Source of the DNA: Candidatus Zhuqueibacterota bacterium
GTDB taxonomy: Bacteria; Zhuqueibacterota; Zhuqueibacteria; Thermofontimicrobiales; Thiofontviventaceae
Assembly (NCBI GenBank): GCA_014729735.1
Contig: WJJN01000117.1
Coordinates: 1 to 37,151 of the forward strand
Length of the DNA: 37,151 bases
Reading direction: 5' to 3'
The notes below the pieces were generated by a model, which saw nothing but the letters and a program-made list of their open reading frames with translations, searched no databases and was not told the origin of the DNA. Position numbers and translations under genes: made by a program. Of this stretch, positions 5,616-37,151 are shown piece by piece. Positions within the stretch are counted from its first letter, which is position 1; every line of letters begins with the position of its first letter.

Positions 5616-5845
5616 AGCATTGATATTTGCGCAGGCAAGGAGGTGGTAATGAGTAGGAGCAGTGACATGGCATTGAATACAATGTACAGAAAACTTAAGA
5701 AAGTGAATTCGAAAGGAGGTGTTAAAAAAAACAGGTTTCAATTAATCTATAAGTAATTTGCTATGGAGTAATATGGAGTTACGAATAAGTTAAAGATGTT
5801 GATAATGATTAATTCACAATAACTCAGAATTTGAGGAGGAATGTT

Positions 5846-7540
5846 ATGAAGTTAACAAAATTAGGGCTTTTTATTACAATTTGTTTAATAGCATCGATTG
5901 CTTTTGCTCAGGCTCCTGATACTGTTGTCGTTGATCCGGGAGTCGGTACATTGAACGAAGCGGTCGCTAATTCTGACAATCAGGGTAAAGTTTTTAAACT
6001 AAAGGGAGGTGAATTAGGGGTTTATATACTGAACGCCGATATCAACAATATTGGCTGGCATTTACAGGTCGTCGGTGAAAAGGGCGATATACCGCCAAGA
6101 ATCGTCAGGGATACGGAAAATGACAGGGATCATTTTTTCGCAGCAGAAGGTGACCTGACGTTAAAGAACCTGTTTTTAATTTATCGGGCAATCAATGGTG
6201 CTCCAATGAGAGGAGAAGTGATCTCGATTTATGAAGATTCTGTTGATGTCACCATTGAAAAAGTGATTAAATCAGAGGGCTACGGAACGTTTGTCAGAAT
6301 CCGGGAAGCCGCGATGGTAAACCTTCTTGTCAAAGATTGTATGTTATTCAATTCATTTCACCCCACTAATCACCAAAGCGGTGGCTGGTTTGTCTGGATC
6401 AGAGGCGACCATACCGGTTCCTATAAGGTTGTGAATAACACTGTTTTCAATGTCAATGGTCCGCTGTTTTTAAATCATTGGAAACGCTTTGATCTGGTTG
6501 AAAACGTGGTTGTTGAACACAACACTATTTGTCTGAACATGCGTCATATTTTTGCACCGATGTTTGCTATTAAAAATTACGTGATTAAGAATAATCTGTT
6601 TGTGGATCCTTTTGCACGTGGTTATGTCGGTCCCGGAGATTACAAAGGTGTTGAATACGCAGGTGATTTTGTTGATAATTTTGATAAAGAACGCCCCGGT
6701 AACGAGTACGACGGACTGTTTGCCATAGACACTCTGGCAGCAGAATGGGGAGTCGCTGAAGAAGATCGCTATATTGAAATTAGCAACAACGTTGTTTATT
6801 TTACCCAAAAAATTAAAGACTGGCATGATGCAGTCGGAGCAATTACAATGCCCTGGTTCAATAAAACATCTCAGGAAATGTTTGACGCGTATGATAATTT
6901 TCTTTTCAAGAACAACGTTGAGGGCGTCGATCCGGTTTTAGCGAACCCATTATCCGGTGAATTTTATGATCTATTCATCGAGTATGAAGATAGATTCCGC
7001 ATGGGAGAAACAATGCCCGACCGTAGCTGGGATCCGGATGGTGATGCAGATCCGTTTACGTGGCCCTGGCCCCTACCACTTGATCTGTCTTTTCAATACA
7101 ATACAGAAGCCCAACAGGGTTGGGATCTCGCCGGCGATGACGGCTATCCGGTCGGCGATCTGAACTGGTTTCCGTCAATGAAGAGCGATTGGGAGGCAGG
7201 TTCACAAGGTCCATTGACACCAATTTCCACAGATGTCGCCTCGCAACCCACTGAAACACCAAAAGAATATCAATTAAGCCAGAATTACCCCAATCCGTTT
7301 AATCCGACGACAACCATCAAATACGGCATAAAGAATACCGATCATGTTAAACTGACTGTTTTCAATATGCTGGGTCAAAAAATCAAAACACTGGTCAATG
7401 AAAATGTAAAAGCTGGTAGCCATCAGGTGACGTGGAATGGTACCAATGAATTAGGTCAGAAAGTCAGCAACGGAATTTATTTCTACCGACTGGAATCTGG
7501 CAAATTCAGCCAGACAATGAAAATGTTATTGCTGAAATAG
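5846..7540 (+). CDS. secreted protein of unknown function (beta-helix-like body) with T9SS C-terminal sorting domain
   Basis: The track start 5831 is TTG. The ATG at 5846 follows GGAGGA by 5 nt and gives a clean signal peptide (MKLTKLGLFITICLIASIAFA/QAPD). The body has repetitive N-x-V/I strand motifs reminiscent of DUF4957/DUF5123 PUL surface proteins (memory only). The last ~90 aa are a T9SS CTD. Confidence 0.8.
   Translation: MKLTKLGLFITICLIASIAFAQAPDTVVVDPGVGTLNEAVANSDNQGKVFKLKGGELGVYILNADINNIGWHLQVVGEKGDIPPRIVRDTENDRDHFFAAEGDLTLKNLFLIYRAINGAPMRGEVISIYEDSVDVTIEKVIKSEGYGTFVRIREAAMVNLLVKDCMLFNSFHPTNHQSGGWFVWIRGDHTGSYKVVNNTVFNVNGPLFLNHWKRFDLVENVVVEHNTICLNMRHIFAPMFAIKNYVIKNNLFVDPFARGYVGPGDYKGVEYAGDFVDNFDKERPGNEYDGLFAIDTLAAEWGVAEEDRYIEISNNVVYFTQKIKDWHDAVGAITMPWFNKTSQEMFDAYDNFLFKNNVEGVDPVLANPLSGEFYDLFIEYEDRFRMGETMPDRSWDPDGDADPFTWPWPLPLDLSFQYNTEAQQGWDLAGDDGYPVGDLNWFPSMKSDWEAGSQGPLTPISTDVASQPTETPKEYQLSQNYPNPFNPTTTIKYGIKNTDHVKLTVFNMLGQKIKTLVNENVKAGSHQVTWNGTNELGQKVSNGIYFYRLESGKFSQTMKMLLLK
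7265..7537 (+). other. T9SS type-A C-terminal sorting domain (TIGR04183-like), copy 1
   Basis: EYQLSQNYPNPFNPTTTIKYGIKNTDHVKLTVFNMLGQKIKTLVNE...VSNGIYFYRLESGKFSQTMKMLLLK. Confidence 0.85.
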
Positions 7541-7629: not shown

Positions 7630-9165
7630 ATGCCAATGAATCGTCGTAAATTTTTGGGCACACTAGCAGCGGGCACGGGTGGATTGCTTCTCACAAAATG
7701 TAAGGAACCGGAGTTCGCACGGCGTCGCGATTTGTTTAATAACAAAAGTGCTGACAAAATTGTCCCCGGAAACAAAAATCATATTTATCCTGAGTCGACT
7801 GTTGGGATTGTTCAATCCGAAAAAAATCATGTAGAAGATTTAAATTACGAAGATATTCGTAAAATGGTACATCAGGCTATAGAATACGCCGGCGGATTTG
7901 AAAATCTGATTCATAACAACGATATTGTGGTTTTAAAGCCCAATATCATGTGTCTCTGGATAAATTCCACCGGTCAAAAACTAATACCGGATGCAAACGG
8001 CGTAACAGCGGATTGGCGTGTGACACGGGCGGTTGTGGAGCTCGTCCGTAAATATAACCCGGATGGGAAGGTTTTTATCATTGAAAGCTCTGCTTTTCAA
8101 TGCACAGAACTTGCAATGATGGAACTTAAATACATGCCGGATTATATCCCCGGCGTCGATGCCTTTCTCTGTCTGGAGAATTGCAGCGGTAATTATGAAG
8201 AATGGGATTCCTCAAAACTGAGTAGAGTAACTTTGCCAAATGGCGTTGGATTGTACCCGGATTCGATGAAACCCAACCTTTCACCGGAATTTTATTTGAA
8301 CAGACTATACTACGAAGCCGATGTTGTAATCAGCTTGCCGGTACTCAAAAATCACACGCATACAGGCATTACAGGTGCGCTAAAGAATGTGTCCGTGGGT
8401 GCAAGTCCGCCGAATATTTACGGCAAATTGATGGAGCCATCGGTAACAAGCGCCACGCAAAAAATTGTGTCCCAATTCGGCAGGCGGCTGGAATTGAACC
8501 GGTGGTATAAAATCAATCACGATCCGATTTATCTGGATACGTGGATTCACGACTATTTTCTGTGCCGACCGGTGGATTTCGTCGTCACCGATGGTTTGAA
8601 CGGATTGCAGAACGGACCCGATATATCGAAATTAGTGAAACAAAAAAGCCTGGCTGAAAACCTGATGAACATGCGAACGATTTTAGCCGGCAGAGATGCG
8701 CTGGCTGTGGACACTGTTCATGCGCTCTTGATTGGAATGGATCCGGCGAAAATCGAGCATCTTGTGTTGCTGTCGAATAAGGGGATCGGTTGTACTGATC
8801 CTGCACGAATTAAAATTCAGGGTAAAATGGTTCATCAATTGAAAAAATCCTTTGAAATGAATTATGAACGTTCATCGCAAAAAATGTATTCAAAATTCAA
8901 TTCACCGGAATTCAAGGTAAAATCAGCATTTTATTCGGATGATAAATTAAATATTGAACTTGGCGCGAATCCGAGAGAGATTTCCAAAATTGAAATTGCT
9001 GTGAACGGTCAATTGCTGGAGACTGCTGTCGTCGGGGGATACGACACTATTTCGCTGGATATCGGTCCGCTTCATTCAGAACAGAATCAACTGGATATTT
9101 ACGCGTATGATTGCTACTTGAATTGCGCGCATAAGTCCCAAAAAATCAAGCGCAGTATTGCCTGA
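7630..9165 (+). CDS. Tat-leader DUF362 domain protein with C-terminal beta-sandwich extension
   Basis: Twin-arginine leader MPMNRRKFLGTLAAGTGGLLLTKC. DUF362 core motifs are VVLKPN, ADVVISLPVLKNHTHTGITGALKN, VTDGLNGLQNGP and ILAGRDALAVDTVHALLIGMDP. A ~100-aa C-terminal Ig-like tail follows. Confidence 0.82.
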   Translation: MPMNRRKFLGTLAAGTGGLLLTKCKEPEFARRRDLFNNKSADKIVPGNKNHIYPESTVGIVQSEKNHVEDLNYEDIRKMVHQAIEYAGGFENLIHNNDIVVLKPNIMCLWINSTGQKLIPDANGVTADWRVTRAVVELVRKYNPDGKVFIIESSAFQCTELAMMELKYMPDYIPGVDAFLCLENCSGNYEEWDSSKLSRVTLPNGVGLYPDSMKPNLSPEFYLNRLYYEADVVISLPVLKNHTHTGITGALKNVSVGASPPNIYGKLMEPSVTSATQKIVSQFGRRLELNRWYKINHDPIYLDTWIHDYFLCRPVDFVVTDGLNGLQNGPDISKLVKQKSLAENLMNMRTILAGRDALAVDTVHALLIGMDPAKIEHLVLLSNKGIGCTDPARIKIQGKMVHQLKKSFEMNYERSSQKMYSKFNSPEFKVKSAFYSDDKLNIELGANPREISKIEIAVNGQLLETAVVGGYDTISLDIGPLHSEQNQLDIYAYDCYLNCAHKSQKIKRSIA

Positions 9166-9213: not shown

Positions 9214-10866
9214 ATGAAAAGACGTACTTTTATAAAACATGCTGCCACGATTGGCGCCGCGGCAGTCATAAATCCCGTTGATATTTTTGGTGAAATATTT
9301 CGGGGAAATTCCGGTTATTTCAGGATTCACCCATTCATTGAAAATAACCCGGATGCTGTCTTTATCATGAAAACAGACGTTCAACAAAAATCCGACTCAA
9401 CCGCTATCAAACAAATCGGTCTTGAATTCGGGCGCACAGTTTTTCTGGGATCGGATGCTGCGGAAAATAGAGTCCCTCTTACTCATAATATTGTTATTAA
9501 ACCGAATTTGACGCGGCGTTACAGAGAAAATCCGCAATATACGATTGAAGGGACCATGGGAATCGTCACAGACTCGAGTTTCATCGAAGGCATAATCGAA
9601 AGCATGAAGGAATTGGGACTGGCAGGTAATCAATTTTATTTACGGGAAGTAAATTGTGATGACATCGAATGGGAGCACGGCGGTTTTTGGGACGTGTGCG
9701 AGCGAACCGGTGCAGACCTGCAGAATTTCGATATCAATATCGAGGATATGGATCCTGAAAACGTTCACTGGGTTGATGTTCCGGATGGTATCTATTTCAA
9801 TAGACTCCCTTATGTCGCACCTGTGAATACACCTGATAGCTGGCTACTCAATATTGCGAAATTTAAAGCGCACGGCATGGGATTAACTTTATGCGCAAAA
9901 AACCTGCAGGGCACGATTGTCAAGGAGTATCAGGGGCACTGCCGTTCACTCAGCTCTTATGTGAGAAAGCAGGGCATTTCCAAAGACAATATTCGCCCGA
10001 CTGCCGAAAGCGACGTGCAAAATAATTATGAACGTCACAAATCAGACATCCCGCGCTGGGATAAGCCGAACGGACCGTTAAGCGGACAACGAATGGAAAC
10101 ATGGGCTACTCGTTGCCTGGATAATAACTCTGTCACAAAACCCGGATTGCATATCATCGAGGGAATTTATGGCAGGAATGGTAATTTTATCAACGGACCT
10201 CACGCTTCGGACGGCAGTATTGATCTGAACAACAAAAATAATCTTGCAAAAGATTTCTTGTCAAATATTCTCATCTTTGGCAAAAATCCGTTTTATGTAG
10301 ATATTGTCGGTCATTGGCTCGGTGGGCACGAGCCAGGGAATATCGGACTTTTTCATGTGGCGATGGAACGGGGCTTTATCGATTATCTGAATCCAATGGA
10401 TATTCCGGTATATGAATGGAAATCCGATGGCTCGGCAATCAAGACACCTCTGACCAATTTTGAAAAAACGCCATTGGTGACATATTATCTACAAAGAAAT
10501 TATGACGGACAGGATGAATCTTACTGGCATTTAATGGATGAGCCTTTTGACTATAGCAAATTTTCAAAGGTCAATGTCGCACAGAAAAATGCAGAAAAAC
10601 CGGGCACATTCATACTCGCTCAAAATTATCCGAATCCGTTTAACAATAGTACGTCCATACAATACTCGATTCCGAAAAACGGACACGTTCGTATCGATGT
10701 CATTAATTCATCCGGGCAGGTTGTGGATCAGTTGGTGAATCGATTTCATGCGGGAGGAAATTACATGGTCAACTGGAACACGGCACACGTCGCATCGGGA
10801 ACGTATTTTTATCGTTTTTCTTATGATGGATTTCACGAAGTCAAAAAAATGGTGTTGCTGAGATAG
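9214..10866 (+). CDS. DUF362 domain protein with Tat leader and T9SS C-terminal sorting domain
   Basis: Leader MKRRTFIKHAATIGAAAV. DUF362 motifs are IVIKPNLT, IAKFKAHGMGLTLCAKNLQG, IIEGIYGRNGNF and LIFGKNPFYVDIVGHWLGGHEP. It ends in a T9SS CTD. Confidence 0.78.
   Translation: MKRRTFIKHAATIGAAAVINPVDIFGEIFRGNSGYFRIHPFIENNPDAVFIMKTDVQQKSDSTAIKQIGLEFGRTVFLGSDAAENRVPLTHNIVIKPNLTRRYRENPQYTIEGTMGIVTDSSFIEGIIESMKELGLAGNQFYLREVNCDDIEWEHGGFWDVCERTGADLQNFDINIEDMDPENVHWVDVPDGIYFNRLPYVAPVNTPDSWLLNIAKFKAHGMGLTLCAKNLQGTIVKEYQGHCRSLSSYVRKQGISKDNIRPTAESDVQNNYERHKSDIPRWDKPNGPLSGQRMETWATRCLDNNSVTKPGLHIIEGIYGRNGNFINGPHASDGSIDLNNKNNLAKDFLSNILIFGKNPFYVDIVGHWLGGHEPGNIGLFHVAMERGFIDYLNPMDIPVYEWKSDGSAIKTPLTNFEKTPLVTYYLQRNYDGQDESYWHLMDEPFDYSKFSKVNVAQKNAEKPGTFILAQNYPNPFNNSTSIQYSIPKNGHVRIDVINSSGQVVDQLVNRFHAGGNYMVNWNTAHVASGTYFYRFSYDGFHEVKKMVLLR
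10609..10863 (+). other. T9SS type-A C-terminal sorting domain, copy 2
   Basis: FILAQNYPNPFNNSTSIQYSIPKNGHVRIDVINSSGQVVDQLV...ASGTYFYRFSYDGFHEVKKMVLLR. Confidence 0.85.
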
Positions 10867-17361: not shown

Positions 17362-18795
17362 ATGTCACTAAAACAAACCAGAAGAGAATTCATTCGAAAT
17401 ATCAGTCACATTTCTGTTGGGACTTTGGCTGCTGGTACGACGATAAGTCTACTATCTTCATGTGGTAATAAAGCTAAAAAACGCAAACCAAATATCATTT
17501 ACATCCTTGCGGATGACCTGGGATATGGTGATCTGGGTTGCTACGGACAAGAACGGATTCAAACCCCGAATATCGACCGGCTCGCAGCAGAGGGGATTCG
17601 GTTTACACAACATTATGCCGGCAGCACAGTGTGTGCGCCCTCTCGCTGTTCTCTAATGACCGGACTGCATACGGGTCATGCCGCAATTCGTGGGAATTCA
17701 AGGGTTGATCCAATGGGACAGAAGCCACTTCCGGCAGAAGAAACTACTGTGGCAGATGTGCTTAAAAAAGCCGGTTACGCAACTGCTCTCATTGGCAAAT
17801 GGGGACTTGGCGGACCGGATACGGAAGGGGAACCGGGGAAACATGGTTTTGATTACTTTTTCGGCTACCTGTGCCAGCGCCATGCACATAACTATTACCC
17901 GGAATTCCTGTTCCGAAATACGGAACGCGTTCCTCTATCCAATGTTGTTGATAATGATCGTACAGACGGCGCCGGCGAAGCAACAGTCAAAAAAGAATAT
18001 GCTCACGATCTGATTATGGACGACGCATTATCATACATCGAAAAAAATCAGAAAAATCCGTTCTTCCTCTATTTATCGCCCACTATACCACATGCGAATA
18101 ATGAAGCCGGTGATCATGGTATGGAAGTCCCCACTGATGCGCCGTATTCAGAAAAGGACTGGCGCCAGCAGGAGAAAAATTTCGCCGCAATGGTCACCCG
18201 ACTGGATGAAGGCGTCGGCAAAATCATGAAAAAATTAAAACAACTGGGACTGGATCATGATACTATCGTTCTCTTTACAAGTGATAACGGACCGCATCGC
18301 GAGGGCGGGCATGACCCGGACTTCTTTGACAGCAACGGAAAATTAAGAGGAATAAAACGGGATTTATACGAAGGCGGCATTCGCGTGCCACTAATTGCTC
18401 GCTGGAAAGGAGTTATCGAGCCAGATCAGGTGAGCGATCACGTGTCAGCGTTCTGGGATTTTCTACCAACGGCTGCCGAAATTGCAGGAACAAGTTTTCC
18501 CAATAATATCGATGGAATTTCATTTTTACCGACATTACTCAATAAGTCCCAAAAAAAGCACGACCATTTTTACTGGGAATTTCATGAAGGAGAAAGTTCT
18601 CACCAGGCTGTGCGCAGCGCTAAGTGGAAGGGCGTGCGTTTCAGTCCAAAAGGAAAATTGGAATTATATGATTTATCTGCGGATGTTGAAGAGAAAAATA
18701 ATGTTGCGGATCAACATCCGGAGATCGTTCAGAAATTGGAGAAGACATTGGCAGAAGCCCACACCGAAAGTGAACTGTGGAAACTGAAACAATGA
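17362..18795 (+). CDS. S1-family (formylglycine-dependent, Cys-type) sulfatase with Tat leader and lipobox
   Basis: Motifs: PNIIYILADDLGYGDLGCYG, the FGly motif CAPSRCSLMTG (Cys codon 17632-17634), GKWGLGG and SDNGPH. The leader is KQTRREFIRN...LLSSCG. Confidence 0.93.
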   Translation: MSLKQTRREFIRNISHISVGTLAAGTTISLLSSCGNKAKKRKPNIIYILADDLGYGDLGCYGQERIQTPNIDRLAAEGIRFTQHYAGSTVCAPSRCSLMTGLHTGHAAIRGNSRVDPMGQKPLPAEETTVADVLKKAGYATALIGKWGLGGPDTEGEPGKHGFDYFFGYLCQRHAHNYYPEFLFRNTERVPLSNVVDNDRTDGAGEATVKKEYAHDLIMDDALSYIEKNQKNPFFLYLSPTIPHANNEAGDHGMEVPTDAPYSEKDWRQQEKNFAAMVTRLDEGVGKIMKKLKQLGLDHDTIVLFTSDNGPHREGGHDPDFFDSNGKLRGIKRDLYEGGIRVPLIARWKGVIEPDQVSDHVSAFWDFLPTAAEIAGTSFPNNIDGISFLPTLLNKSQKKHDHFYWEFHEGESSHQAVRSAKWKGVRFSPKGKLELYDLSADVEEKNNVADQHPEIVQKLEKTLAEAHTESELWKLKQ

Positions 18796-21161
18796 AAAAG
18801 AAATTCGTTTTTAGAATCTTTATCTCGATGCTGATCATTCTGTTCGTCAATGCCTGTGATCGTGCACCTGATAGTTCGCTATTTGTCGAAACCAAAAATA
18901 GCATTCATTTTCGGACTGTAAGCAGTTCACTGGTGATCGATAAAAATCCCTGGAAATTGACTGTATTCGATAAAAGCGGTAAAATGCAGACCAGCGAAGT
19001 AGCGCCGCCGGCTTTTAAAATAAATGATAAATGGATTACAGTTGGGAATGTGGGGTATATCGAACAGAAAAATGATCGGATGGCGGAATTGAAACTGCAA
19101 CTACGCAATGGCGCAGATGCTTCCGCAACTGTCGAAAAAATGAATAATCATGTATTTAAAATTAAAATAAAAACTGAAGCGCCGGTGACGGATATTCGGG
19201 GATCATTTTCGCTGGCAAATGAGGAAGAGGTTTATGGATTCGGCGAGATGTGGAACGGTCGGGTCGCGCAACGGGGACAGAAAATCAGGATTTGGGATCA
19301 AACCGGAACGCCGGATGAATGCGCGTACATGCCGTATTACGTAACGACAAATAATTATGCATTCTTCCTGAACTATGGCGGGCTGGTTAACTTTGACGTG
19401 GGAGCGAGTCAGTCTGACCAAATTGTCTATGAAGCGCCGACATCGAGGTTTGATGTGACGATTTTCTCCGGCGAAAGTATTGCCGGCACGGTAAATCATT
19501 TTGTTCAGCACGTCGGCAAACCGTTGATGCCTCCCCGATGGGCGTTCAAACCGTGGTACTGGTTGATGGGATCTGCCTGGGATGCAAATGATATGCAGCA
19601 GAGCGGACATGCGCATGTCATCGCAGCACAGAAATATCAGGAGATGGACATTCCGGTTTCCGTCACCTGGTTCGAGCCCAAATGGCAGACCGCCCGCAAT
19701 TCATTCATCACCCCCAAATCCTTTAGCTCCGATGTGAGCGCAGTGATCGATACGTTGCACAAAATGGGAATAAAAGTCCTGGGCTGGACTGCTCCGTACA
19801 CGACTTCTGCCGCTCCGAATTGGAACGCTGCCATTGAAAATGGATTTCTCGTCAAAAAACCGGACGGCGAGCTGGTCGATCCGAAAGTGACGACTTCCGG
19901 CGAAGTGGTCGCCGGTGGATATCATTACATCGATTTTACCAATCCTGCTGCCCGAAGCTGGTGGCAGAGCGAAATCGCCAAAGGGCTGGATGTCGGACTG
20001 GATGGCTATAAAATGGATTCAGGACAGTATCTGCCGGAAGATGCCATTTTACACAACGGCGAATTGGGAAAGGATTATCATAATTCGTACGGTTTGTACT
20101 ATAAAATGACATTTTATGAAATTCTATCCGAACGATTGGACAATGATTTTATGATGCTGCCCCGCGCTGCCTGGGTTGGCTCTCAGAAATATACGAATTT
20201 CAAATGGCCCGGAGATTTATCTGCCAGTTTTGCTGAAAACGGATTGCCATCGTCGGTCTATTCGAGCCTGTCTCTGACGTTCTGTGGGATGCCGTTTCTT
20301 TCTACGGATATTGGTGGCTTTGAAAATCGTCCGCCCACGGAGCATGTTTGGATTCGCTGGGCACAGTTCGGTACGTTTCTGCCGGGGATGCAAACACTGG
20401 CAATGCCGTACTGGTACTCAGATGAAGCGATTCAGCATTACCGTTATCTTTCCTGGCTGCACACGGAGCTGGTTCCATTCTGGATGAGTCTTGCGCATGA
20501 AGCGCATGAGACCGGCGCCCCACTTGTGCGTCCGCTGGTATGGACGTTTCAGGATGATAAAAAAAGCTGGCATATCAAAGATCAGTTCACAGTCGGTGAT
20601 GCGTTTTTGGTCGCACCCGTAATCACTCCCGAACACCGCCGACAAGTCTACCTGCCACCGGGTAACTGGTACAATTTCAGCGATGATGCTAAAAAATGGC
20701 AGGGATCGGCTGAATTGAGCTGGGAGGGCGATTTATGGCAATTCCCGGTATACATTCGGGAAGGCGCCATCCTTCCACTGGAGGTGCGGCGGGATATTAC
20801 CGGATTTGGCTGGCGTGAATCAAAAAATTATATCACCATCGCTATCTGGCCGGATAGGAATAATGCCTCAACCTTTGTTTTGCATGATCAGGAAAAACCG
20901 GTCAATTTTACCATGACTCAATCAAACGACGATTGGAAAATTAGCTGGTCGCCATCTGAAAAGGATTATCTGTTCCGAATTCACGGTGAATATGTGAATC
21001 CACAGCAGTTAGTTTACAATGACAATGAATTAAAAGAGTTCGATGAATTAATGACGTTTCGTAAGAGCCATGAAGATGGCTGGTATTTTGACACGAATCA
21101 AAATAAACTCTGGATTAGAAAAACCGCGACGAATAAATCGACGACACTTTGGGTAAAATGA
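18792..21161 (+). CDS. GH31 glycoside hydrolase (alpha-glycosidase), lipoprotein
   Basis: The preferred start, ATG 18792, overlaps the sulfatase stop as ATGA and gives MKKKFVFRIFISMLIILFVNAC. GH31 motifs are GLDGYKMDSGQY (nucleophile region, compare YicI KTDFGE) and KWPGDLSASF...GMPFLSTDIGGF. Confidence 0.86.
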   Translation: MKKKFVFRIFISMLIILFVNACDRAPDSSLFVETKNSIHFRTVSSSLVIDKNPWKLTVFDKSGKMQTSEVAPPAFKINDKWITVGNVGYIEQKNDRMAELKLQLRNGADASATVEKMNNHVFKIKIKTEAPVTDIRGSFSLANEEEVYGFGEMWNGRVAQRGQKIRIWDQTGTPDECAYMPYYVTTNNYAFFLNYGGLVNFDVGASQSDQIVYEAPTSRFDVTIFSGESIAGTVNHFVQHVGKPLMPPRWAFKPWYWLMGSAWDANDMQQSGHAHVIAAQKYQEMDIPVSVTWFEPKWQTARNSFITPKSFSSDVSAVIDTLHKMGIKVLGWTAPYTTSAAPNWNAAIENGFLVKKPDGELVDPKVTTSGEVVAGGYHYIDFTNPAARSWWQSEIAKGLDVGLDGYKMDSGQYLPEDAILHNGELGKDYHNSYGLYYKMTFYEILSERLDNDFMMLPRAAWVGSQKYTNFKWPGDLSASFAENGLPSSVYSSLSLTFCGMPFLSTDIGGFENRPPTEHVWIRWAQFGTFLPGMQTLAMPYWYSDEAIQHYRYLSWLHTELVPFWMSLAHEAHETGAPLVRPLVWTFQDDKKSWHIKDQFTVGDAFLVAPVITPEHRRQVYLPPGNWYNFSDDAKKWQGSAELSWEGDLWQFPVYIREGAILPLEVRRDITGFGWRESKNYITIAIWPDRNNASTFVLHDQEKPVNFTMTQSNDDWKISWSPSEKDYLFRIHGEYVNPQQLVYNDNELKEFDELMTFRKSHEDGWYFDTNQNKLWIRKTATNKSTTLWVK

Positions 21162-25990: not shown

Positions 25991-26779
25991 ATGAACAATG
26001 TTACTCCAAATCATGCATTTAAAGTCGATCAATTACAGGTAAAAATATACGATTCGAGCATATCGATGGGACAGGCAGCGTCGGATTTTGTTGCCGGTGA
26101 ATTGAATCGCGCAACCCAGAAACGAGGATATGCCAACTTGATTTTCGCCACCGGTGCCTCCCAATTCAAATTTATCGATGCTTTTAAAAAGGATAAAACT
26201 GTAGACTGGGCCCGGATCACCGTATTTCACCTGGATGAATACAAAGGCATGTCAGATCAGCATCCTGCCAGCTTCAGGCGTTATTTAAAAGAGAGAATTC
26301 TGGATGAGGTAAAACCACAGCAAATTTATTTTCTGAATGGCGATGTTGATGATATCGATGCAGAAGTAACCAATTATGAACGATTACTGAAACAACATCC
26401 TGTTGATGTGGCGTGCATCGGCATAGGAGAAAACGGGCATATTGCATTTAACGATCCCCCGGTTGCTGATTTTAATGATCCGAAACTTGTTAAAGTCCTC
26501 GAATTGGATGAAGCCTGTCGCAAACAGCAACTGGGGGAAGGCTGGTTTGATACGATTCACGATGTTCCGACACACGCATTGAGTTTGACGATCCCGGCGA
26601 TTATGCAGTGTCAGGCTGTAAGTACTGCGGTGCCGGACTTACGAAAAGCAGATGCAGTGTATAACACTCTGAATAGTGAAATCAGTACAAGCTGCCCCGC
26701 TACTATATTGCGAACGCATCCGAAGGCAGTATTATTTCTCGATCCTGATTCTGCATCAAAATTGGAAAAAGCAGAATAG
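25991..26779 (+). CDS. nagB: glucosamine-6-phosphate deaminase
   Basis: 262 aa with no signal peptide. FATGASQ, TVFHLDEYKGM, IGIGENGHIAFNDPP and THPKAVLFLD match the E. coli NagB pattern (GLPTGGTP, TFNMDEYVGL, GVGNDGHIAFNEP, LHPKAIMVCD). Confidence 0.88.
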   Translation: MNNVTPNHAFKVDQLQVKIYDSSISMGQAASDFVAGELNRATQKRGYANLIFATGASQFKFIDAFKKDKTVDWARITVFHLDEYKGMSDQHPASFRRYLKERILDEVKPQQIYFLNGDVDDIDAEVTNYERLLKQHPVDVACIGIGENGHIAFNDPPVADFNDPKLVKVLELDEACRKQQLGEGWFDTIHDVPTHALSLTIPAIMQCQAVSTAVPDLRKADAVYNTLNSEISTSCPATILRTHPKAVLFLDPDSASKLEKAE

Positions 26780-26798
26780 TATTATGAAAGGAGTGAAA

Positions 26799-28367
26799 AT
26801 GTTCGATCGAATTCCCAAATACATTCTTGTTTATGTTTTATTGTTATTACCCTTTAAATTGAATGCAATTTATGTGGAATGGCCAGGAGAAGATGAGGAT
26901 GCCACAGCGCTTCTTCAGCAGGCAATTGATTCCGGTGAACCTGAAGTAAGATTGGCAAATCATGGTTCACCATGGATAATTGGTCAAATTGAATTGACTC
27001 GAGATGACCAGCGAATTGTTTTCGAGAGTGGTGTTCGGGTTGAGGGTAAATATGGCGCTTTTCCGGAAACAAACGATAAAATGTTTCGCTGCTATAATCA
27101 TAAAAATATCGAGTTAATCGGCGAGGGAGAAACGCCGGTATTGAAAATGCCTAAAAAGTCATTTTGGGAGGGGCAGCATCGTCATCTGACTGCCTGGCGA
27201 AATGTCGAAAATCTGACAATCAGCAATTTGCATTTGCGAGACAGCGGCGGAGATGGAATTTATCTGGGCAGTTCCTCAAATTTACCATGCAAAAATGTTT
27301 TGATTGAAGATGTGATCTGTAATAATAACCGCAGACAGGGATGCAGCATTATTAGTGTTGACAGTTGTATTATTCGGAATTGCGTTTTCAAGAATACGTA
27401 TGGTGAGTCACCCGAAGCGGGAATCGATTGTGAAATGAATTCAAAAGATGAAAGTATAAATGCGTTGTATATTGAAAACTGCGTTTTCGAAAATAACCAT
27501 CAAAGCGGTTTTCTGATATCATTTGGAAGAGCTTCAAACCGAAATCCAAATCGACACATTCGGATTGAATTAAATAATTGCATCATGAAAGGAAATGGAA
27601 GCGCCGGGATTAATATCTGGAAATGCAAGGGAAATTGCTACAATGAATCAGATTATGTGTTATTCAAAAATTGCCATATTGAAGACAATGGCAGTGCTCC
27701 CGGCTACGGACATCCCGGTTTATTTGTAAAAAATAAAAGCTCACAATCACTGCCTGTGACTTTGGATAGCTGTACTTTTGTCGATAATTTCTCGAATCCG
27801 ATTAAGGTATATGCGGATGTTGATGGTTACGGACCCGACTGTGGAAATCTTCGTTTTGAAGATTGTCACATTTACGATGATAGAGATCGTGAATTTTTAA
27901 GAGTGCGGAATACCACCAACGATGAAGGTAAAATCAGCAAGATTTTCGGCACGATAACAATACATAATGAAAACCCGAAAGCGTGCGACATCCGCTATGA
28001 TTCACCGGCTGACAGTTTTGATTTAACGATTCATTGCAATCCTACAGGTATCGATAGCAAGGAAATAGTCAGAACCCAAAACCATCCTGCGCGGTTTTAT
28101 TTATACCAAAATTATCCGAATCCATTCAATCCATCAACAAAAATAACTTTTGATGTTTACGAAAACGTACAGGTTAAAATTACGATTCATAATGTTCTCG
28201 GTCAAATCGTCAAAACTCTGATTGACGGAGCTTTACATGTTGATCACTATGAGCTTTATTGGGATGCCACAAATGAATCTGGCGGTAAAGTGAAGAATGG
28301 GCTCTATCTTTGTCAACTGCAGACAGAGGATAAGATTTCTTCAATTAAATTGATTGTCTTGAGATAA
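26799..28367 (+). CDS. right-handed parallel beta-helix (PbH1 repeat) protein with T9SS C-terminal sorting domain
   Basis: The track start 26676 overlaps nagB. The ATG at 26799 follows GGAG by 5 nt and gives signal peptide MFDRIPKYILVYVLLLLPFKLNA. PbH1 repeats are LRDSGGDGIYLGSS, NNNRRQGCSIISVDSCIIRNCVF, ENNHQSGFLIS and KGNGSAGINIW. It ends in a CTD. Confidence 0.78.
   Translation: MFDRIPKYILVYVLLLLPFKLNAIYVEWPGEDEDATALLQQAIDSGEPEVRLANHGSPWIIGQIELTRDDQRIVFESGVRVEGKYGAFPETNDKMFRCYNHKNIELIGEGETPVLKMPKKSFWEGQHRHLTAWRNVENLTISNLHLRDSGGDGIYLGSSSNLPCKNVLIEDVICNNNRRQGCSIISVDSCIIRNCVFKNTYGESPEAGIDCEMNSKDESINALYIENCVFENNHQSGFLISFGRASNRNPNRHIRIELNNCIMKGNGSAGINIWKCKGNCYNESDYVLFKNCHIEDNGSAPGYGHPGLFVKNKSSQSLPVTLDSCTFVDNFSNPIKVYADVDGYGPDCGNLRFEDCHIYDDRDREFLRVRNTTNDEGKISKIFGTITIHNENPKACDIRYDSPADSFDLTIHCNPTGIDSKEIVRTQNHPARFYLYQNYPNPFNPSTKITFDVYENVQVKITIHNVLGQIVKTLIDGALHVDHYELYWDATNESGGKVKNGLYLCQLQTEDKISSIKLIVLR
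28092..28364 (+). other. T9SS type-A C-terminal sorting domain, copy 3
   Basis: RFYLYQNYPNPFNPSTKITFDVYENVQVKITIHNVLGQIVKTLIDG...VKNGLYLCQLQTEDKISSIKLIVLR. Confidence 0.85.
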
Positions 28368-28405: not shown

Positions 28406-30637
28406 ATGAGAACTTATAAATATTGCAACCCAATTTTCTGTTTGTTAATATTATTAATCCCCTATTCTATTATAGGTATTGAACCTGGCACCGGTCCCCA
28501 ATCCGGTGATATCTACCGGGAGTATTCGATCTTTCCTTCGGATGAGGGTAGCGGCTATTGGCGCGTGACCAATCCAAATGCGATCTCCTCCGGAGCGAAA
28601 CGATTTCTGCCAAATCCTGTAATGCGGTTTGAGATCAGCGACCTGACGCAGGCAATCAAAGCAGAAGCAGTCATCGATTACTGGGGCGGACACACCGGCA
28701 CTATTGATCGCAAATTTTCTATCAATGATAATAAATGGATTGAACTGCCCTATCCTGCCACGATCCAACAGCGTCCTTATAACTATGCATTTCAAATGAA
28801 CGCAATTGTAGATGTGCCGCTGGAACACTTGCTGAAAGGTCGAAATACGATTACCGGCACCTGTTCGCATGTGGATAGTACCAGTTGGGGGCAATGGGGC
28901 TGGTATCGCATTACATTTCGTGTTTATTATGACGAAAGCAAGCCTCATCCATCGGGACAAATTCTCGCGCCTGTATCGGGAGAAACCATCGGAGATATTC
29001 CAAACATCATTGCGGAAGGGAATAGCAATGCTGGTGTCAGTCATATTAATATCATTGGATTTTACGATGGGTATGATGTGGATGGCAACGGCATTTATGC
29101 AGATTGGCATCGAAATTATAACGGGAGAAGACTGGAAGACCATATTGGCTATGATGGACAGGAGCCATTTGCAATCACATGGGATACGAAATGGATACCG
29201 GATCAGGATAACATTCAAATCCGGGCACATATTGCAGATAATAACGGATATGTTTACGTAACAGAGCCTGTCACCAACCTCTCGTTGCAGCGCAATGACA
29301 GAATTGTGAAAATGTATCACGCGACTGGTGTTCATGAGGATTTTGCAGTCAGGATGGGCGAAAAGGCAGCCTGTCAGACTTCCATCCCGGACAGACTGTT
29401 TAATGCGTCCGAAGCGTCGTTGCATCTTCGCACCTGGAACGGGTATAATCATGGCGAAAGAAACTGGGGATATCTCAACGATTGGCGATTTACACCACCC
29501 GGCGAGAATCACTGCTATGATTACGGGATCAAGTCAATTCCGGTAAGTGTGTTGCAGGAGAAAAGTAATAAGATTCTGTTCACTTCTTCCACTCATGAAC
29601 ACGGAGTGGAAATTCTATGGCCAGGTCCGAGTATTGCTGTCAGCTATTCCCTTGAATTGGCTGCTTATTGGGAGGCTTCCGCGTATTCCGGTGCAGCACC
29701 GATGAAAATTTACTTCAACGGTCAGAAGTCTGTAGTGCCCCGGAATCAGGAAATTACAGACTATTCCTGGAATTTCAGAGACGGTACAATTGCAAACGGC
29801 GATACAGTCAGTCATGTTTTTGAAAATCCCGGCTTATATGCTGTCGAATTAACAATAACCGATAATAACGGTGAGACCGCCACGCATACCGAAGAAATTT
29901 ATATTCACGATGCACAATTCGCCATTGACTGCAAGTCGGTTGCAGCAAGCTATGACAAATCTCCGTATGATAAATGCAAATCCATTGACGGAAATTTTGA
30001 TACATTCTGGATGAGCGTGGGCGACGGTCAATGGATTCAGTATGATTTGCGAGCACTCAAAACGCTGCAAGCCTGTTATCTGGCATTTTCTTCAGGCGAC
30101 AAAACGACGTACCGGTTTAGCATCGAGACATCGGTTGATAGCGTTTCCTGGAATGCGACCAGTAATTCTCCCTTTACCAGCAGCGGATATTCAACAGAAT
30201 ATGAGCTCTTCAACTTTGACGATGTCACAGCACAATGGATTCGGATTGTATTTCACGGCTCATCCTTTACTGCGAATTCCGTATCTGAATTTGCTGCCTA
30301 TGGGAGTGATTCCGTATCAACTGATGTGGAGATTGGTACTATGGATCAAGCTATGCCCGAAGAATTCATCCTACATCAGAATTATCCAAATCCGTTCAAT
30401 CCGGCGACGAAAATCTGCTACAGCATTCCGAAACAGGCGAATATTAAGCTCACCGTGCATAATATTCTGGGACAGCACATCAAAACGCTCGCAGATGATA
30501 ATTTTCCTGCTGGCAAATATACAGTTGAATGGAATGGCACAGATACGTATGGACAGACGGTGGGAAACGGTATATACTTTTACAAAATACAAACAGATGA
30601 ATTTTCCGAGGTACGAAAAATGGTGGTTCTGAGATAG
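28406..30637 (+). CDS. multidomain secreted protein: unknown ~380-aa module + PKD + F5/8 type C (discoidin) + T9SS CTD
   Basis: Signal peptide, then an unknown module (aa ~35-415, nt 28508-29650) paralogous to the 32861 product. The PKD domain is at nt 29663-29905 (YSWNFRDGTIANGDTVSHVFENPGLYAVELTITDNNGE). The discoidin domain is at nt 29918-30301 (IDGNFDTFWMSVGDGQWIQYDL...WIRIVFHG). The CTD follows. Confidence 0.82.
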   Translation: MRTYKYCNPIFCLLILLIPYSIIGIEPGTGPQSGDIYREYSIFPSDEGSGYWRVTNPNAISSGAKRFLPNPVMRFEISDLTQAIKAEAVIDYWGGHTGTIDRKFSINDNKWIELPYPATIQQRPYNYAFQMNAIVDVPLEHLLKGRNTITGTCSHVDSTSWGQWGWYRITFRVYYDESKPHPSGQILAPVSGETIGDIPNIIAEGNSNAGVSHINIIGFYDGYDVDGNGIYADWHRNYNGRRLEDHIGYDGQEPFAITWDTKWIPDQDNIQIRAHIADNNGYVYVTEPVTNLSLQRNDRIVKMYHATGVHEDFAVRMGEKAACQTSIPDRLFNASEASLHLRTWNGYNHGERNWGYLNDWRFTPPGENHCYDYGIKSIPVSVLQEKSNKILFTSSTHEHGVEILWPGPSIAVSYSLELAAYWEASAYSGAAPMKIYFNGQKSVVPRNQEITDYSWNFRDGTIANGDTVSHVFENPGLYAVELTITDNNGETATHTEEIYIHDAQFAIDCKSVAASYDKSPYDKCKSIDGNFDTFWMSVGDGQWIQYDLRALKTLQACYLAFSSGDKTTYRFSIETSVDSVSWNATSNSPFTSSGYSTEYELFNFDDVTAQWIRIVFHGSSFTANSVSEFAAYGSDSVSTDVEIGTMDQAMPEEFILHQNYPNPFNPATKICYSIPKQANIKLTVHNILGQHIKTLADDNFPAGKYTVEWNGTDTYGQTVGNGIYFYKIQTDEFSEVRKMVVLR
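30362..30634 (+). other. T9SS type-A C-terminal sorting domain, copy 4
   Basis: EFILHQNYPNPFNPATKICYSIPKQANIKLTVHNILGQHIKTLADD...VGNGIYFYKIQTDEFSEVRKMVVLR. Confidence 0.85.
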
Positions 30638-36250: not shown

Positions 36251-37151
36251 ATGCCATTAACCCGACGAGAGTTCATAAAAACCGTGATGGCTGGAAGTGC
36301 TTTATCGCTGTTTCACAGTCATTGTGGCTTAATGAATTCAATAAATAGAAAACCCAATATTGTATTCATTTTAATAGATGATATGGGTTGGAAGGACCTG
36401 GGATGTTTTGGTGCAAAGCTGCAAGAAACACCAAACATCGACAAGCTTTGTGCCGCAGGGGTGCGTTTTCCGCAGGCGTATACATCTACGGCTATTTGTG
36501 CTCCGGCCCGGGCAACGGTTTTAACCGGAAAACATCCGATGAAATTGCGCATGTGGAATCATTATCATTTCATCCCGAAAAGAGAAAAAATTCTGGCACA
36601 ATACCTGAAAGATGCAGGCTATCAGACTTGGCATATCGGGAAATGGCATTTGGGAAATGAGGAAGATCATACTCTCCCCACCGATTTGGGATTTGATGTC
36701 AATTGTGGTGGTGGTATTGCCTGGGCGCCGGGGTCGTATTTTTGGCCGTACGGGTGTAATACGGATGGTACAGGCGGAAATCCGAGAATGAGCGTTCCCG
36801 GACTGGTTCCTGATGGAAAAGACGGTGAATATCTCACCGACCGACTCACGGAGGAAGCACTGAATTTGCTTAACCAGAGAGATCCATCGAAGCCGTTTTT
36901 CCTTAACTTTTGGCATTTTGCGGTTCATAACAGAAAAGAAGGCAAGCCCGCACTTGTCGAAAAATATCGACGTAAAATTAAAGAATTGGGGCTGGAACCA
37001 ACCTACCGGATCGACCCACATACGAACAGCAAGTTGCTCACCAGTGAAACCAATGCAGTTTATGCTGCAATGATTGAGAGCGTTGATGAATCTGTTGGAC
37101 GTTTGGTGGATAAGCTAAAACAGATCGGTGAGTATGAAAATACTTTTTTTG
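36251..37151 (+). CDS. S1-family Cys-type sulfatase with Tat leader, 3'-truncated by window end (not in supplied ORF track)
   Basis: My own translation from ATG 36251 (GGAG 8 nt upstream) is open to the last base. It reads MPLTRREFIKTVMAGSALSL...KPNIVFILIDDMGWKDLGCFG...TSTAICAPARATVLTGKHP (Cys codon 36497-36499)...GKWHLG...PFFLNFWHFAVH...AMIESVDESVGRLVDKL. Confidence 0.88.
   Translation, partial: MPLTRREFIKTVMAGSALSLFHSHCGLMNSINRKPNIVFILIDDMGWKDLGCFGAKLQETPNIDKLCAAGVRFPQAYTSTAICAPARATVLTGKHPMKLRMWNHYHFIPKREKILAQYLKDAGYQTWHIGKWHLGNEEDHTLPTDLGFDVNCGGGIAWAPGSYFWPYGCNTDGTGGNPRMSVPGLVPDGKDGEYLTDRLTEEALNLLNQRDPSKPFFLNFWHFAVHNRKEGKPALVEKYRRKIKELGLEPTYRIDPHTNSKLLTSETNAVYAAMIESVDESVGRLVDKLKQIGEYENTFF

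What the first reader, a model, noticed from the sequence alone, without database searches (positions are those of the whole stretch)
9214..10866. One polypeptide with both a twin-arginine leader and a T9SS C-terminal sorting domain
The N-terminus is MKRRTFIKHAATIGAAAV, close to the S/T-R-R-x-F-L-K consensus followed by an Ala-rich h-region. The C-terminus is FILAQNYPNPFNNSTSIQYSIP...GTYFYRFSYDGFHEVKKMVLLR, a T9SS type-A CTD. T9SS cargo is generally described as crossing the inner membrane by Sec. A Tat-then-T9SS route would mean a pre-folded protein, perhaps cofactor-loaded, is handed to the outer-membrane translocon.
Basis: partly seen in the sequence, partly recalled or inferred. Interest (0 to 1): 0.65.

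Follow-up and report, generated by a model that had tools for sequence, protein, structure and literature searches.

The report
Tat leader on T9SS cargo
A conserved family of secreted bacterial enzymes carries both a twin-arginine (folded-protein) export leader and a type IX secretion tail, which contradicts the textbook statement that all type IX cargo crosses the inner membrane unfolded through Sec.

Summary
ORF 9214-10866 (+) encodes a 550-aa DUF362 protein. Its N-terminus, MKRRTFIK plus an Ala/Gly-rich h-region, Pro21 and IFG|E, is a Tat-type leader. Its C-terminus is a T9SS type-A sorting domain (TIGR04183, 40.4 bits against a cut-off of 23).

This is not chance. In 113 homologues about 50% identical, R3, R4 and F6 are invariant and all match the TatP motif. 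In 79 related genome loci, 81 of 83 family genes carry the RR leader. None of 50 other CTD-bearing genes has a genuine one.

More diverged representatives always keep the leader, while the C-terminal module varies: CTD, none, or a dockerin-like tail.

The best explanation is that the enzyme folds in the cytoplasm, crosses the inner membrane through Tat, and is then taken across the outer membrane by the T9SS through its CTD.

Reviews state that all T9SS effectors use Sec, and the T9GPred pipeline discards Tat-positive candidates. I found no report of Tat-dependent T9SS cargo.

Because the T9SS already moves folded proteins and T2SS has Tat-dependent substrates, the route is plausible rather than shocking.

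Still unproven: export dependence, tat and T9SS genes in this genome, and any cofactor. The fold is only remotely LarA-like.

The parts
9214..10866 (+). Gene for the 550-aa DUF362-family protein with a Tat-type leader and a T9SS type-A CTD (stop codon included)
   Evidence: ORF listing; Pfam DUF362 5.7e-14 and Por_Secre_tail 1e-8; more than 100 full-length homologues at 50-57% identity
9202..9208 (+). Putative ribosome-binding site GAAGGAA, 5-6 nt upstream of the ATG (inferred)
   Evidence: Read directly from the sequence
9214..9291 (+). Predicted Tat-type signal peptide, residues 1-26: n-region MK, RR motif, h-region, c-region. Predicted signal peptidase I cleavage is IFG26|E27.
   Evidence: Position-specific conservation across 113 members; low-confidence N-terminal helix not packed on the core in the AF2 model
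9217..9237 (+). Twin-arginine motif K2-R3-R4-T5-F6-I7-K8 (consensus S/T-R-R-x-F-L-K)
   Evidence: R3, R4 and F6 are invariant. Position +4 is L/I/V/M in 98% of members, and position +5 is K/Q/R in 96%. TIGR01409 scores 16.0 bits against a cut-off of 16.7.
9241..9270 (+). Weakly hydrophobic Ala/Gly/Thr-rich h-region (A10-I19)
   Evidence: Kyte-Doolittle comparison with Sec leaders in the window; family column composition with Gly at +11 in 78%
9271..9291 (+). c-region N20-G26, with helix-breaking Pro21 and the -3/-1 residues I24 and G26
   Evidence: Pro at +18 in 76% of members; [AVIL]-[FL]-[GSA] at +21 to +23; K/R at +20 in 41%
9304..10578 (+). Catalytic core (residues 31-455), a DUF362 / remote LarA-like fold. 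Invariant residues include K96, N98, D120, E125, K216, K218, H220, K229, N230, C243, H372 and H439.
   Evidence: Pfam PF04015; AF2 core model pLDDT 93.9; the only Foldseek PDB hits with high match probability are the LarA-family racemases 7s91 and 9eia, with weak TM scores of 0.29-0.31; invariant columns
10579..10626 (+). Flexible linker between the core and the CTD (residues 456-471)
   Evidence: pLDDT below 50 at residues 459-464; variable alignment columns
10627..10863 (+). T9SS type-A C-terminal sorting domain (residues 472-550), ending ...GTYFYRFSYDGFHEVKKMVLLR
   Evidence: TIGR04183 scores 40.4 bits against 23 and PF18962 scores 35.8 against 27. P473, N474, P475, G515 and G529 are invariant. 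The domain is a beta-sandwich matching the mirolase, RemA and PorZ CTDs.
7630..9165 (+). Context: adjacent distant DUF362 paralogue (21% identity) with an RR leader followed by Cys24 and no CTD
5831..7540 (+). Context and contrast: a CTD protein with a classical Leu/Ile-rich Sec leader (MKLTKLGLFITICLIASIAFAQA)
26676..28367 (+). Context and contrast: a beta-helix CTD protein with a Sec-type leader
28406..30637 (+). Context and contrast: a PKD/F5_F8 CTD protein with a Sec-type leader
17362..18795 (+). Context: a Cys-type sulfatase with a Tat-like leader (TRREFIR) and a Cys after the h-region. This is a further sign that the organism uses Tat.

Best explanation
The gene encodes a secreted or surface-displayed enzyme of the DUF362 family that carries two sequential sorting signals.

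Step 1 (inferred from sequence): the protein folds in the cytoplasm, possibly acquiring a metal or organic cofactor or oligomerising. Its N-terminal twin-arginine leader (RRTFIK, weakly hydrophobic Ala/Gly h-region, Pro21) is recognised by TatBC. The folded protein is moved across the inner membrane by Tat, and the leader is cut by signal peptidase I around G26|E27.

Step 2 (inferred): in the periplasm, the folded C-terminal type-A CTD is recognised by the type IX secretion machinery (PorV/SprA-type translocon). The still-folded enzyme is moved across the outer membrane. The CTD is then removed by the PorU-type sortase, and the enzyme is released or anchored on the cell surface.

Step 3 (weakly inferred): outside the cell it acts on a glycan substrate. 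The gene sits in a TonB-receptor/glycoside-hydrolase/sulfatase locus. Relatives are often next to CBM9-like CTD proteins, and the sister subfamily is fused to CBM9 or dockerin modules.

The Tat requirement belongs to this enzyme subfamily. The outer-membrane signal is an exchangeable add-on.
For: Both signals are present and pass, or nearly pass, the curated models.

The twin-arginine leader is under strong selection:
- R3, R4 and F6 are invariant in 113 homologues at about 50% identity.
- 113 of 113 match the TatP regex.
- The full Tat architecture is conserved position by position: N/D/T/S at -1, RR, F, L/I/V, K/Q/R, an Ala/Gly h-region, Pro at +18, basic residues in the c-region, and an [AVIL]-[FL]-[GSA] site.
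- All 50%-cluster representatives with an intact N-terminus, down to 38% identity, keep the RR motif. Their C-terminal module varies (CTD, none, dockerin-like tail), and a few also have a Cys after the leader.

The h-region is much less hydrophobic than the Sec leaders of the other secreted proteins in the same window: 2.11 against 2.66-3.24.

The leader is specific to this family. In 79 genome loci plus the window, 81 of 83 family ORFs have the RR leader. The two exceptions lack an intact N-terminus and look truncated or disrupted. None of 50 other CTD-bearing ORFs has a genuine Tat motif.

The window holds three more Tat-like leaders (a DUF362 paralogue and two sulfatases) and three more CTD proteins. 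The organism therefore very probably has both pathways. CTD proteins and T9SS genes co-occur in genomes (PMC11285876).

The CTD model matches solved T9SS CTDs, including RemA-CTD bound to the translocon. 85 of 85 family members match TIGR04183.

The T9SS transports folded cargo, including GFP and mCherry fusions (PMC9251779; PMC11285876). A Tat-delivered folded protein is therefore a compatible substrate. T2SS provides a precedent for Tat-then-outer-membrane secretion (PMC8047123 table; PMC4899797 abstract).
Against: - No dedicated predictor (SignalP 6, TatP, PRED-TAT) could be run.
- The query scores 16.0 bits against the TIGR01409 cut-off of 16.7, and Pfam TAT_signal did not hit it.
- The leader is short, about 26 aa with a 2-residue n-region before the RR pair. 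The query lacks a basic residue in its c-region.
- Many Tat leaders can also engage Sec when fused to a Sec-compatible passenger (PMC7317946).
- The source contig is only 37 kb, so tatA/tatC and T9SS genes were not seen in this organism. None lies by chance in the 1.24 Mb of related loci.
- All members come from uncultured MAGs, so no experiment exists.
- No cofactor is demonstrated. The resemblance to LarA is weak (TM about 0.3) and undetectable by sequence.
- CTD-bearing members of the sister DUF362 subfamily use Sec-type leaders, so the fold does not demand Tat in itself.
Confidence: 0.7

Rival explanations
1. The protein crosses the inner membrane through Sec despite the RR motif. The leader would be a Sec signal that happens to contain paired arginines, or a promiscuous signal, and the protein would be an ordinary Sec-then-T9SS cargo.
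For: [quoted passage not shown]
- The query's TIGR01409 score is just under the cut-off.
- The leader is short, and the query's h-region (2.11) is at the upper end of the family range.
- CTD-bearing proteins of the sister DUF362 subfamily do use Sec-like leaders.
Against: - Sec needs only positive charge, with no difference between Lys and Arg (PMC7317946). Yet RR, the F at +3, the L/I/V at +4 and the K/Q/R at +5 are invariant or nearly invariant across 113 sequences and down to 38% identity.
- Paired arginines are very rare in Sec signals.
- None of 50 other CTD proteins from the same genomes has this motif.
- The h-region is clearly less hydrophobic than the local Sec leaders.
Confidence: 0.13
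2. The protein is exported by Tat but the C-terminal beta-sandwich is not used as a T9SS signal in this organism. The domain could be a structural or binding Ig-like module, or be read by another sorting system in a non-Bacteroidota lineage. The enzyme would then stay in the periplasm.
For: - The family occurs in MAGs labelled KSB1, Latescibacterota, Calditrichota, Gemmatimonadetes and Marinimicrobia. T9SS function in these groups is only suggested, not shown (PMC11285876).
- The CTD region also resembles FlgD-Ig/DUF3244-type sandwiches.
- Some family members lack the CTD altogether.
- No T9SS gene is in the window.
Against: - The domain is at the extreme C-terminus, scores above the TIGR04183 and PF18962 cut-offs, and keeps the type-A hallmarks NPF..., GxY and the K-M-x-L-L-K/R end.
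- 85 of 85 members match TIGR04183.
- Structural matches include CTDs known to be secreted.
- Members also occur in Bacteroidales and Cytophagia MAGs.
- CTD proteins and T9SS genes co-occur in genomes, and the window alone has four CTD proteins.
Confidence: 0.12
3. Artefact: a wrong start codon or a chance motif, with no real leader.
For: Only that short motifs can occur by chance. One regex hit on another window ORF (5831, 'LRRNVM' from an alternative TTG start) is indeed spurious.
Against: - The ATG at 9214 is the first start after the stop and has an SD-like AGGA upstream.
- The motif is invariant and sits at the same position (median residue 4) in 113 homologues.
Confidence: 0.02

Closest known systems
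Canonical T9SS type-A cargo (for example P. gingivalis RgpB, F. johnsoniae ChiA and RemA, T. forsythia mirolase)
   Same: A C-terminal domain of about 80 aa forming a beta-sandwich, matching TIGR04183 and PF18962, at the extreme C-terminus and preceded by a flexible linker. The context is carbohydrate degradation, with other CTD proteins in the locus.
   Different: All described cargo has a Sec signal peptide (PMC10202324; 102 experimental cargoes in T9GPred). This family has an invariant twin-arginine leader with a weakly hydrophobic h-region.
[quoted passage not shown] 2001, plus PMC4899797 and PMC8047123)
   Same: A two-step route: Tat across the inner membrane, then a dedicated outer-membrane machine that accepts folded proteins.
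   Different: The outer-membrane machine is different (T9SS rather than the T2SS secretin and pseudopilus). The secretion signal is a discrete, cleavable C-terminal domain rather than a conformational signal. The lineages are FCB-group bacteria rather than Proteobacteria.
DUF362 (PF04015) / LarA superfamily, Pfam clan CL0471
   Same: The Pfam DUF362 match is above threshold. DUF362 shares a clan with the LarA N-terminal domain (PMC11770544). The only Foldseek PDB hits for the core with high match probability are the LarA-family racemases 7s91 and 9eia.
   Different: The structural similarity is weak (TM 0.29-0.31) and undetectable by sequence or profile against the PDB. No nickel-pincer cofactor site could be verified. 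LarA enzymes are cytoplasmic, whereas this protein is extracytoplasmic.
Sister DUF362 subfamily (window 7630-9165 and relatives), fused to CBM9, dockerin or CTD
   Same: Same Pfam domain. It is extracytoplasmic, associated with carbohydrate-binding modules, and some members carry T9SS CTDs or RR leaders.
   Different: It is only 21% identical. Leaders are heterogeneous: RR in 31 of 120, otherwise Sec-like or membrane anchors. Its CTD-bearing members use Sec-like leaders.

Membership tests
Twin-arginine (Tat) signal peptide | Consecutive arginines in the n-region, embedded in S/T-R-R-x-F-L-K | tested here: met
   K-R-R-T-F-I-K at residues 2-8. RR and F are invariant; position +4 is L/I/V/M; position +5 is K/Q/R in 96% of 113 homologues. 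All 113 match the TatP regex.
Twin-arginine (Tat) signal peptide | h-region of at least 12 uncharged residues, less hydrophobic than Sec leaders, rich in Gly/Ala and poor in Leu | tested here: met
   The best 10-aa Kyte-Doolittle mean is 2.11 for the query and 1.78 +/- 0.31 for the family, against 2.66-3.24 for five Sec leaders in the window. Column composition is Ala/Gly/Thr/Ser.
Twin-arginine (Tat) signal peptide | Helix-destabilising residue about 12-17 residues after the RR pair, and a signal peptidase I site in the c-region | tested here: met
   Pro at +18 from the first Arg (+17 from the second) in 76% of members; this is P21 in the query. [AVIL]-[FL]-[GSA] at +21 to +23; this is I24-F25-G26 in the query. 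The criterion is from PMC7317946. The cleavage site is inferred.
Twin-arginine (Tat) signal peptide | Score above the curated HMM cut-offs (TIGR01409, PF10518) | tested here: inconclusive
   The query scores 16.0 bits against 16.7 for TIGR01409 and has no PF10518 hit. 45 of 85 family members match TIGR01409 at E<=0.01, best 8.3e-6. Several homologues carry a precomputed PF10518 hit.
Twin-arginine (Tat) signal peptide | tatA/tatC present in the genome and export dependent on them | not testable with these tools
   The window is the whole 37-kb contig. No tat gene lies in the window or in 1.24 Mb of related loci (uninformative). Indirect evidence: three other Tat-like leaders in the window.
T9SS type-A CTD cargo | C-terminal domain matching TIGR04183 / PF18962 above the curated cut-off, at the extreme C-terminus | tested here: met
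   40.4 bits against 23, and 35.8 bits against 27, over residues 472-547 of 550. 85 of 85 homologues match.
T9SS type-A CTD cargo | Ig-like beta-sandwich fold of the CTD | tested here: met
   The AF2 model has strands at 479-548 with pLDDT 84-94. Foldseek hits include 8qb1 (mirolase CTD), 8gl6_D (RemA-CTD with the T9SS) and 5m11 (PorZ).
T9SS type-A CTD cargo | [quoted passage not shown] | tested here: not met
   The leader has Tat features rather than Sec features. This is the point of the finding. The feature describes known cargo and is not a mechanistic requirement.
T9SS type-A CTD cargo | T9SS machinery in the same genome and T9SS-dependent secretion | not testable with these tools
   There are no T9SS component genes in the window. 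Indirect evidence: four CTD proteins in 37 kb, and the reported co-occurrence of CTD proteins with T9SS genes (PMC11285876).
DUF362 / LarA-like clan CL0471 | Pfam PF04015 match above the gathering score | tested here: met
   53.1 bits against 24, residues 93-331.
DUF362 / LarA-like clan CL0471 | LarA-type nickel-pincer nucleotide cofactor site (tethering Lys, Ni-binding His, catalytic His pair) | tested here: inconclusive
   There is only remote fold similarity to 7s91 and 9eia (E 1.5e-3 and 3e-2, TM about 0.3). No sequence or profile match to any PDB chain was found. Invariant K216/K218/H220/K229 exist but could not be mapped onto LarA.

The most novel reading that the evidence does not exclude
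Tat-then-T9SS is an obligatory, previously unrecognised secretion route. On this reading, the subfamily is a cofactor- or metal-loaded LarA-like enzyme that must be assembled in the cytoplasm before it is displayed on the cell surface. That would make it the first extracellular member of the LarA/DUF362 clan with a cytoplasmically inserted cofactor. It would also imply that current T9SS cargo predictors systematically discard a whole class of substrates.
Probability: 0.12. Interest if true: 0.8.

Novelty: new variant of a known kind. Interest (0 to 1): 0.55.

Why it matters
[quoted passage not shown] At least one prediction pipeline explicitly rejects candidates with a Tat signal. This family has at least 585 loci in species-representative genomes of Ignavibacteria, KSB1, Calditrichota, Latescibacterota, environmental Bacteroidales and others, and it would be filtered out.

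If the route is confirmed, three things follow:
- The inner-membrane step of T9SS secretion is not restricted to Sec.
- The T9SS can take over proteins that were folded, and possibly cofactor-loaded, in the cytoplasm. That is useful for engineering surface display of cofactor enzymes in Bacteroidota.
- There is a concrete, easily testable substrate, using RR-to-KK and CTD-deletion constructs.

It also flags an uncharacterised, widespread, probably glycan-active enzyme family.

Tried and rejected
- Sequence and profile searches of the PDB with the protein and with the family alignment gave no meaningful hits.
- Foldseek with the full-length model matched only the CTD. A second model of the core alone was needed, and it gave only weak LarA-family hits.
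- I looked for conserved neighbours shared between the window and 79 related loci and found none. The only recurrent neighbours elsewhere are CBM9-like and Reg_prop CTD proteins, in 25 of 79 loci, and these are absent from the window.
- I searched the related loci for tatA/tatC (regex, plus phmmer with E. coli TatC recalled from memory) and for SprA-sized ORFs. Nothing was found, which is uninformative given about 16 kb per genome.
- Five literature searches for Tat-dependent T9SS cargo found no report. The Caldithrix genome paper does not discuss T9SS.
- The idea that the DUF362 fold always needs Tat is rejected. The sister subfamily has many Sec-like or anchor leaders, including on its CTD-bearing members.
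- The idea that RR leaders are simply common on CTD proteins in these genomes is rejected: 0 of 50 have one.
- The single regex hit on window ORF 5831 is a false positive from an alternative TTG start.
Full report
**Observation**

The window contains an ORF at exactly 9214..10866 on the + strand, encoding 550 aa. Its ATG is the first possible start after the preceding stop, and GAAGGAA lies 5-6 nt upstream.

- Pfam finds DUF362 (residues 93-331, 53.1 bits against 24) and Por_Secre_tail (residues 472-547, 35.8 bits against 27).
- NCBIfam finds the T9SS type-A sorting domain TIGR04183 at 40.4 bits against a cut-off of 23.
- The Tat signal model TIGR01409 scores 16.0 bits, just under its 16.7 cut-off.

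Both elements are therefore really there. The CTD is clear-cut. The leader needed further evidence.

**Is the leader a conserved Tat signal or a chance RR?**

A homologue search returned a large family of about 533-aa proteins, 50-57% identical to the query. They come from MAGs labelled KSB1, Ignavibacteria, Calditrichia and others.

- In an alignment of 113 members with a mean column identity of 50%, R3, R4 and F6 are invariant.
- All 113 match the TatP regular expression RR.[FGAVML][LITMVF], with the RR pair at median residue 4.
- Counting from the first Arg, the leader is conserved position by position:
  - N/D/T/S at -1, RR, and F at +3 (100%);
  - L/I/V/M at +4, and K/Q/R at +5 (96%);
  - an Ala/Gly/Thr/Ser h-region with Gly at +11 (78%);
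  - Pro at +18 (76%), and K/R at +20 (41%);
  - [AVIL]-[FL]-[GSA] at +21 to +23.

This is the architecture described for Tat signal peptides: S-R-R-x-F-L-K with F the next most conserved residue, a weakly hydrophobic Gly-rich h-region, a helix breaker 12-17 residues after the RR pair, a basic 'Sec-avoidance' residue, and an AxA-type site (PMC7317946). For the query this predicts cleavage at IFG26|E27.

The h-region is much less hydrophobic than Sec leaders. The best 10-aa Kyte-Doolittle mean is 2.11 for the query and 1.78 +/- 0.31 for the family. Five Sec-type leaders of other exported proteins in the same window score 2.66-3.24. With the curated HMMs, 45 of 85 members match TIGR01409 at E<=0.01 and 85 of 85 match TIGR04183.

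**Is the leader specific to this family?**

A scan of species-representative genomes found at least 585 loci encoding relatives. I kept 79 loci (1.24 Mb). They come from Ignavibacteria, KSB1, Calditrichota, Latescibacterota, Marinimicrobia, Gemmatimonadetes and many environmental Bacteroidales/Cytophagia MAGs.

I called ORFs in these loci and the window. I detected C-terminal CTDs with an HMM built from the family's CTD, and then inspected the leaders.

- 81 of 83 family ORFs carry the RR motif. The two exceptions lack an intact N-terminus and look truncated or disrupted.
- None of 50 non-family CTD ORFs has a genuine Tat motif. These have classical Leu/Ile-rich Sec leaders. The single regex hit is an alternative TTG start in window ORF 5831.
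- The same loci contain 17 other ORFs with strict Tat-like leaders, none with a CTD.

An exhaustive search of 1.84 billion cluster representatives gave only 94 clusters at E<=1e-30. Every representative with an intact N-terminus keeps the RR leader, down to 38% identity. The C-terminal module varies: a T9SS CTD in most, nothing, or a dockerin-like tail. A few members also have a Cys just after the leader. The Tat leader therefore travels with the catalytic core, and the outer-membrane signal is exchangeable.

**Structure**

The full-length AF2 model has pLDDT 88.4. It shows:
- a low-confidence N-terminal helix (residues 3-29) that is not packed on the core;
- a well-defined core (residues about 35-455);
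- a low-confidence linker (residues 459-464);
- a beta-sandwich at residues 479-548.

Foldseek against the PDB matched only the sandwich. The matches include solved T9SS CTDs: mirolase 8qb1, RemA-CTD in the T9SS complex 8gl6_D, and PorZ 5m11.

The core modelled alone has pLDDT 93.9. Its only PDB matches with high Foldseek probability are the LarA-family racemases 7s91 (E 1.5e-3) and 9eia, with low TM scores of 0.29-0.31. This agrees with DUF362 sharing Pfam clan CL0471 with the LarA N-terminal domain (PMC11770544). It is too weak to infer a nickel-pincer cofactor, and sequence and profile searches of the PDB found nothing.

**Context**

All the genes listed below are on the + strand, in the layout of a polysaccharide-utilisation locus:
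- an ECF sigma factor, a FecR anti-sigma factor, and a TonB-dependent receptor;
- a CTD protein, and a distant DUF362 paralogue (RR leader followed by Cys24);
- the gene studied here;
- GH172 (DUF2961), GH20, an FG-GAP protein, and a Cys-type sulfatase with a Tat-like leader plus Cys;
- GH31, a GH42-like protein, a NagA-like amidohydrolase, Nramp, and NagB;
- two further CTD proteins, an esterase, and a second Tat-leader sulfatase cut by the window end.

The contig thus holds four Tat-like leaders and four CTDs. This argues that the organism has both pathways, although neither machinery is encoded in these 37 kb.

The window's neighbours are not conserved around other family members. In 25 of 79 loci the gene lies near CBM9-like or Reg_prop proteins with CTDs. 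DUF362 has been noted fused to CBM9 and dockerin in metagenomes (PMC5742341).

The sister subfamily (the window paralogue, 21% identical) is heterogeneous. Only 31 of 120 have RR leaders. Its CTD-bearing members have Sec-like leaders. The DUF362 fold therefore does not always require Tat, and the invariant RR leader is a property of this subfamily.

**Mechanism**

The best-supported reading has three steps:
1. The enzyme folds in the cytoplasm and is exported by Tat, and signal peptidase I removes the leader.
2. The folded CTD is recognised by the T9SS, and the enzyme crosses the outer membrane and is released or anchored.
3. It probably acts on a glycan at the cell surface.

What is shown: both signals are present, they are conserved, and the leader is specific to the family. 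What is inferred: use of Tat, use of the T9SS, the cleavage sites, and the reason for using Tat.

The route is mechanistically compatible with what is known. The T9SS translocon carries folded proteins and even GFP or mCherry fused to a CTD (PMC9251779; PMC11285876). Tat-then-T2SS secretion is an accepted precedent (PMC8047123; PMC4899797).

**Comparison with the literature**

- Other reviews and tables list T9SS as Sec-only and T2SS as Sec/Tat (PMC8047123; PMC7073777; PMC11285876).
- T9GPred derives its rules from 102 experimentally verified cargoes and requires 'no Tat signal'.
- Five full-text searches found no report of a Tat-dependent T9SS substrate. Absence from this library is not proof of absence.
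- T9SS components are suggested in several non-Bacteroidota FCB phyla, and CTD proteins co-occur with T9SS genes.

**Verdict**

I rate it a new variant of a known kind: T9SS cargo with a Tat first step instead of a Sec one. It is of moderate to good interest.

- In its favour: it contradicts an 'all' statement in the field and is excluded by a current predictor.
- Against: it is mechanistically unsurprising given folded-cargo transport by the T9SS and the T2SS precedent.
- Open points: predictor scores, presence of the tat and T9SS genes in the same genomes, experimental dependence on each pathway, and whether a cytoplasmically inserted cofactor explains the Tat requirement.

Noticed in passing
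window 7630-9165 (+): Adjacent distant DUF362 paralogue (21% identity) with the leader MPMNRRKFLGTLAAGTGGLLLTKC. This is a Tat-like motif followed by Cys24, so it is possibly a Tat-exported lipoprotein. Its subfamily mixes RR leaders (31 of 120), membrane-anchor or Sec leaders, and C-terminal CBM9, dockerin, TSP3 or T9SS CTD modules. The CTD-bearing members there have Sec-like leaders.
   Followed up: partly
window 17362-18795 (+) and 36251-37151 (+, cut by the window end): Two Cys-type sulfatases (CAPSR / CAPAR formylglycine motif). Each has a twin-arginine-like leader (TRREFIR / TRREFIK) followed by a Cys after the h-region (LLSSC / FHSHC). This suggests Tat-exported lipoprotein sulfatases.
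   Followed up: partly
window 582-36229 (+): Almost the whole contig is one co-directional PUL-like locus without a SusD gene. It contains ECF sigma, FecR, a TonB-dependent receptor, GH172 (DUF2961), GH20, GH31, a GH42-like protein, a NagA-like protein, NagB, Nramp, an esterase, sulfatases and four T9SS-CTD proteins. This suggests degradation of an amino-sugar or sulfated glycan.
   Followed up: partly
related loci, for example L074:4947-6935, L009:8375-10270, L067:4996-6042, L041:16575-17852: In 25 of 79 related loci the family gene lies within 10 kb of CBM9-like and/or Reg_prop beta-propeller proteins that also carry T9SS CTDs. This echoes the published DUF362-CBM9 fusions. No such gene is in the window.
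   Followed up: partly
proteins P0201, P0208-P0212, P0217, P0222, P0228, P0235-P0240 (homologues of window 7630-9165): A group of sister-subfamily DUF362 proteins shares a conserved N-terminal 'WFLIRVIPKPSRAxYPCQ' segment (a hydrophobic stretch plus a conserved Cys motif) in place of an RR leader. Its meaning is unknown.
   Followed up: no
proteins P0250, P0260, P0264, P0251, P0256, P0273 (diverged family representatives): Variants of the same catalytic core keep the RR leader but differ in their other sorting features. P0250, P0260 and P0264 have a Cys just after the leader (a possible lipobox); P0250 also keeps a CTD-like C-terminus. P0256, P0260 and P0273 have no CTD. P0251 has a dockerin-like tail.
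   Followed up: partly
window 18777-21161 and 26676-28367 (+): The mechanical ORF starts (GTG) overlap the upstream genes. The real starts are probably the internal ATGs giving MKKKFVFRIF... (GH31, with a possible lipobox FVNAC) and MKGVKMF... (beta-helix CTD protein).
   Followed up: no
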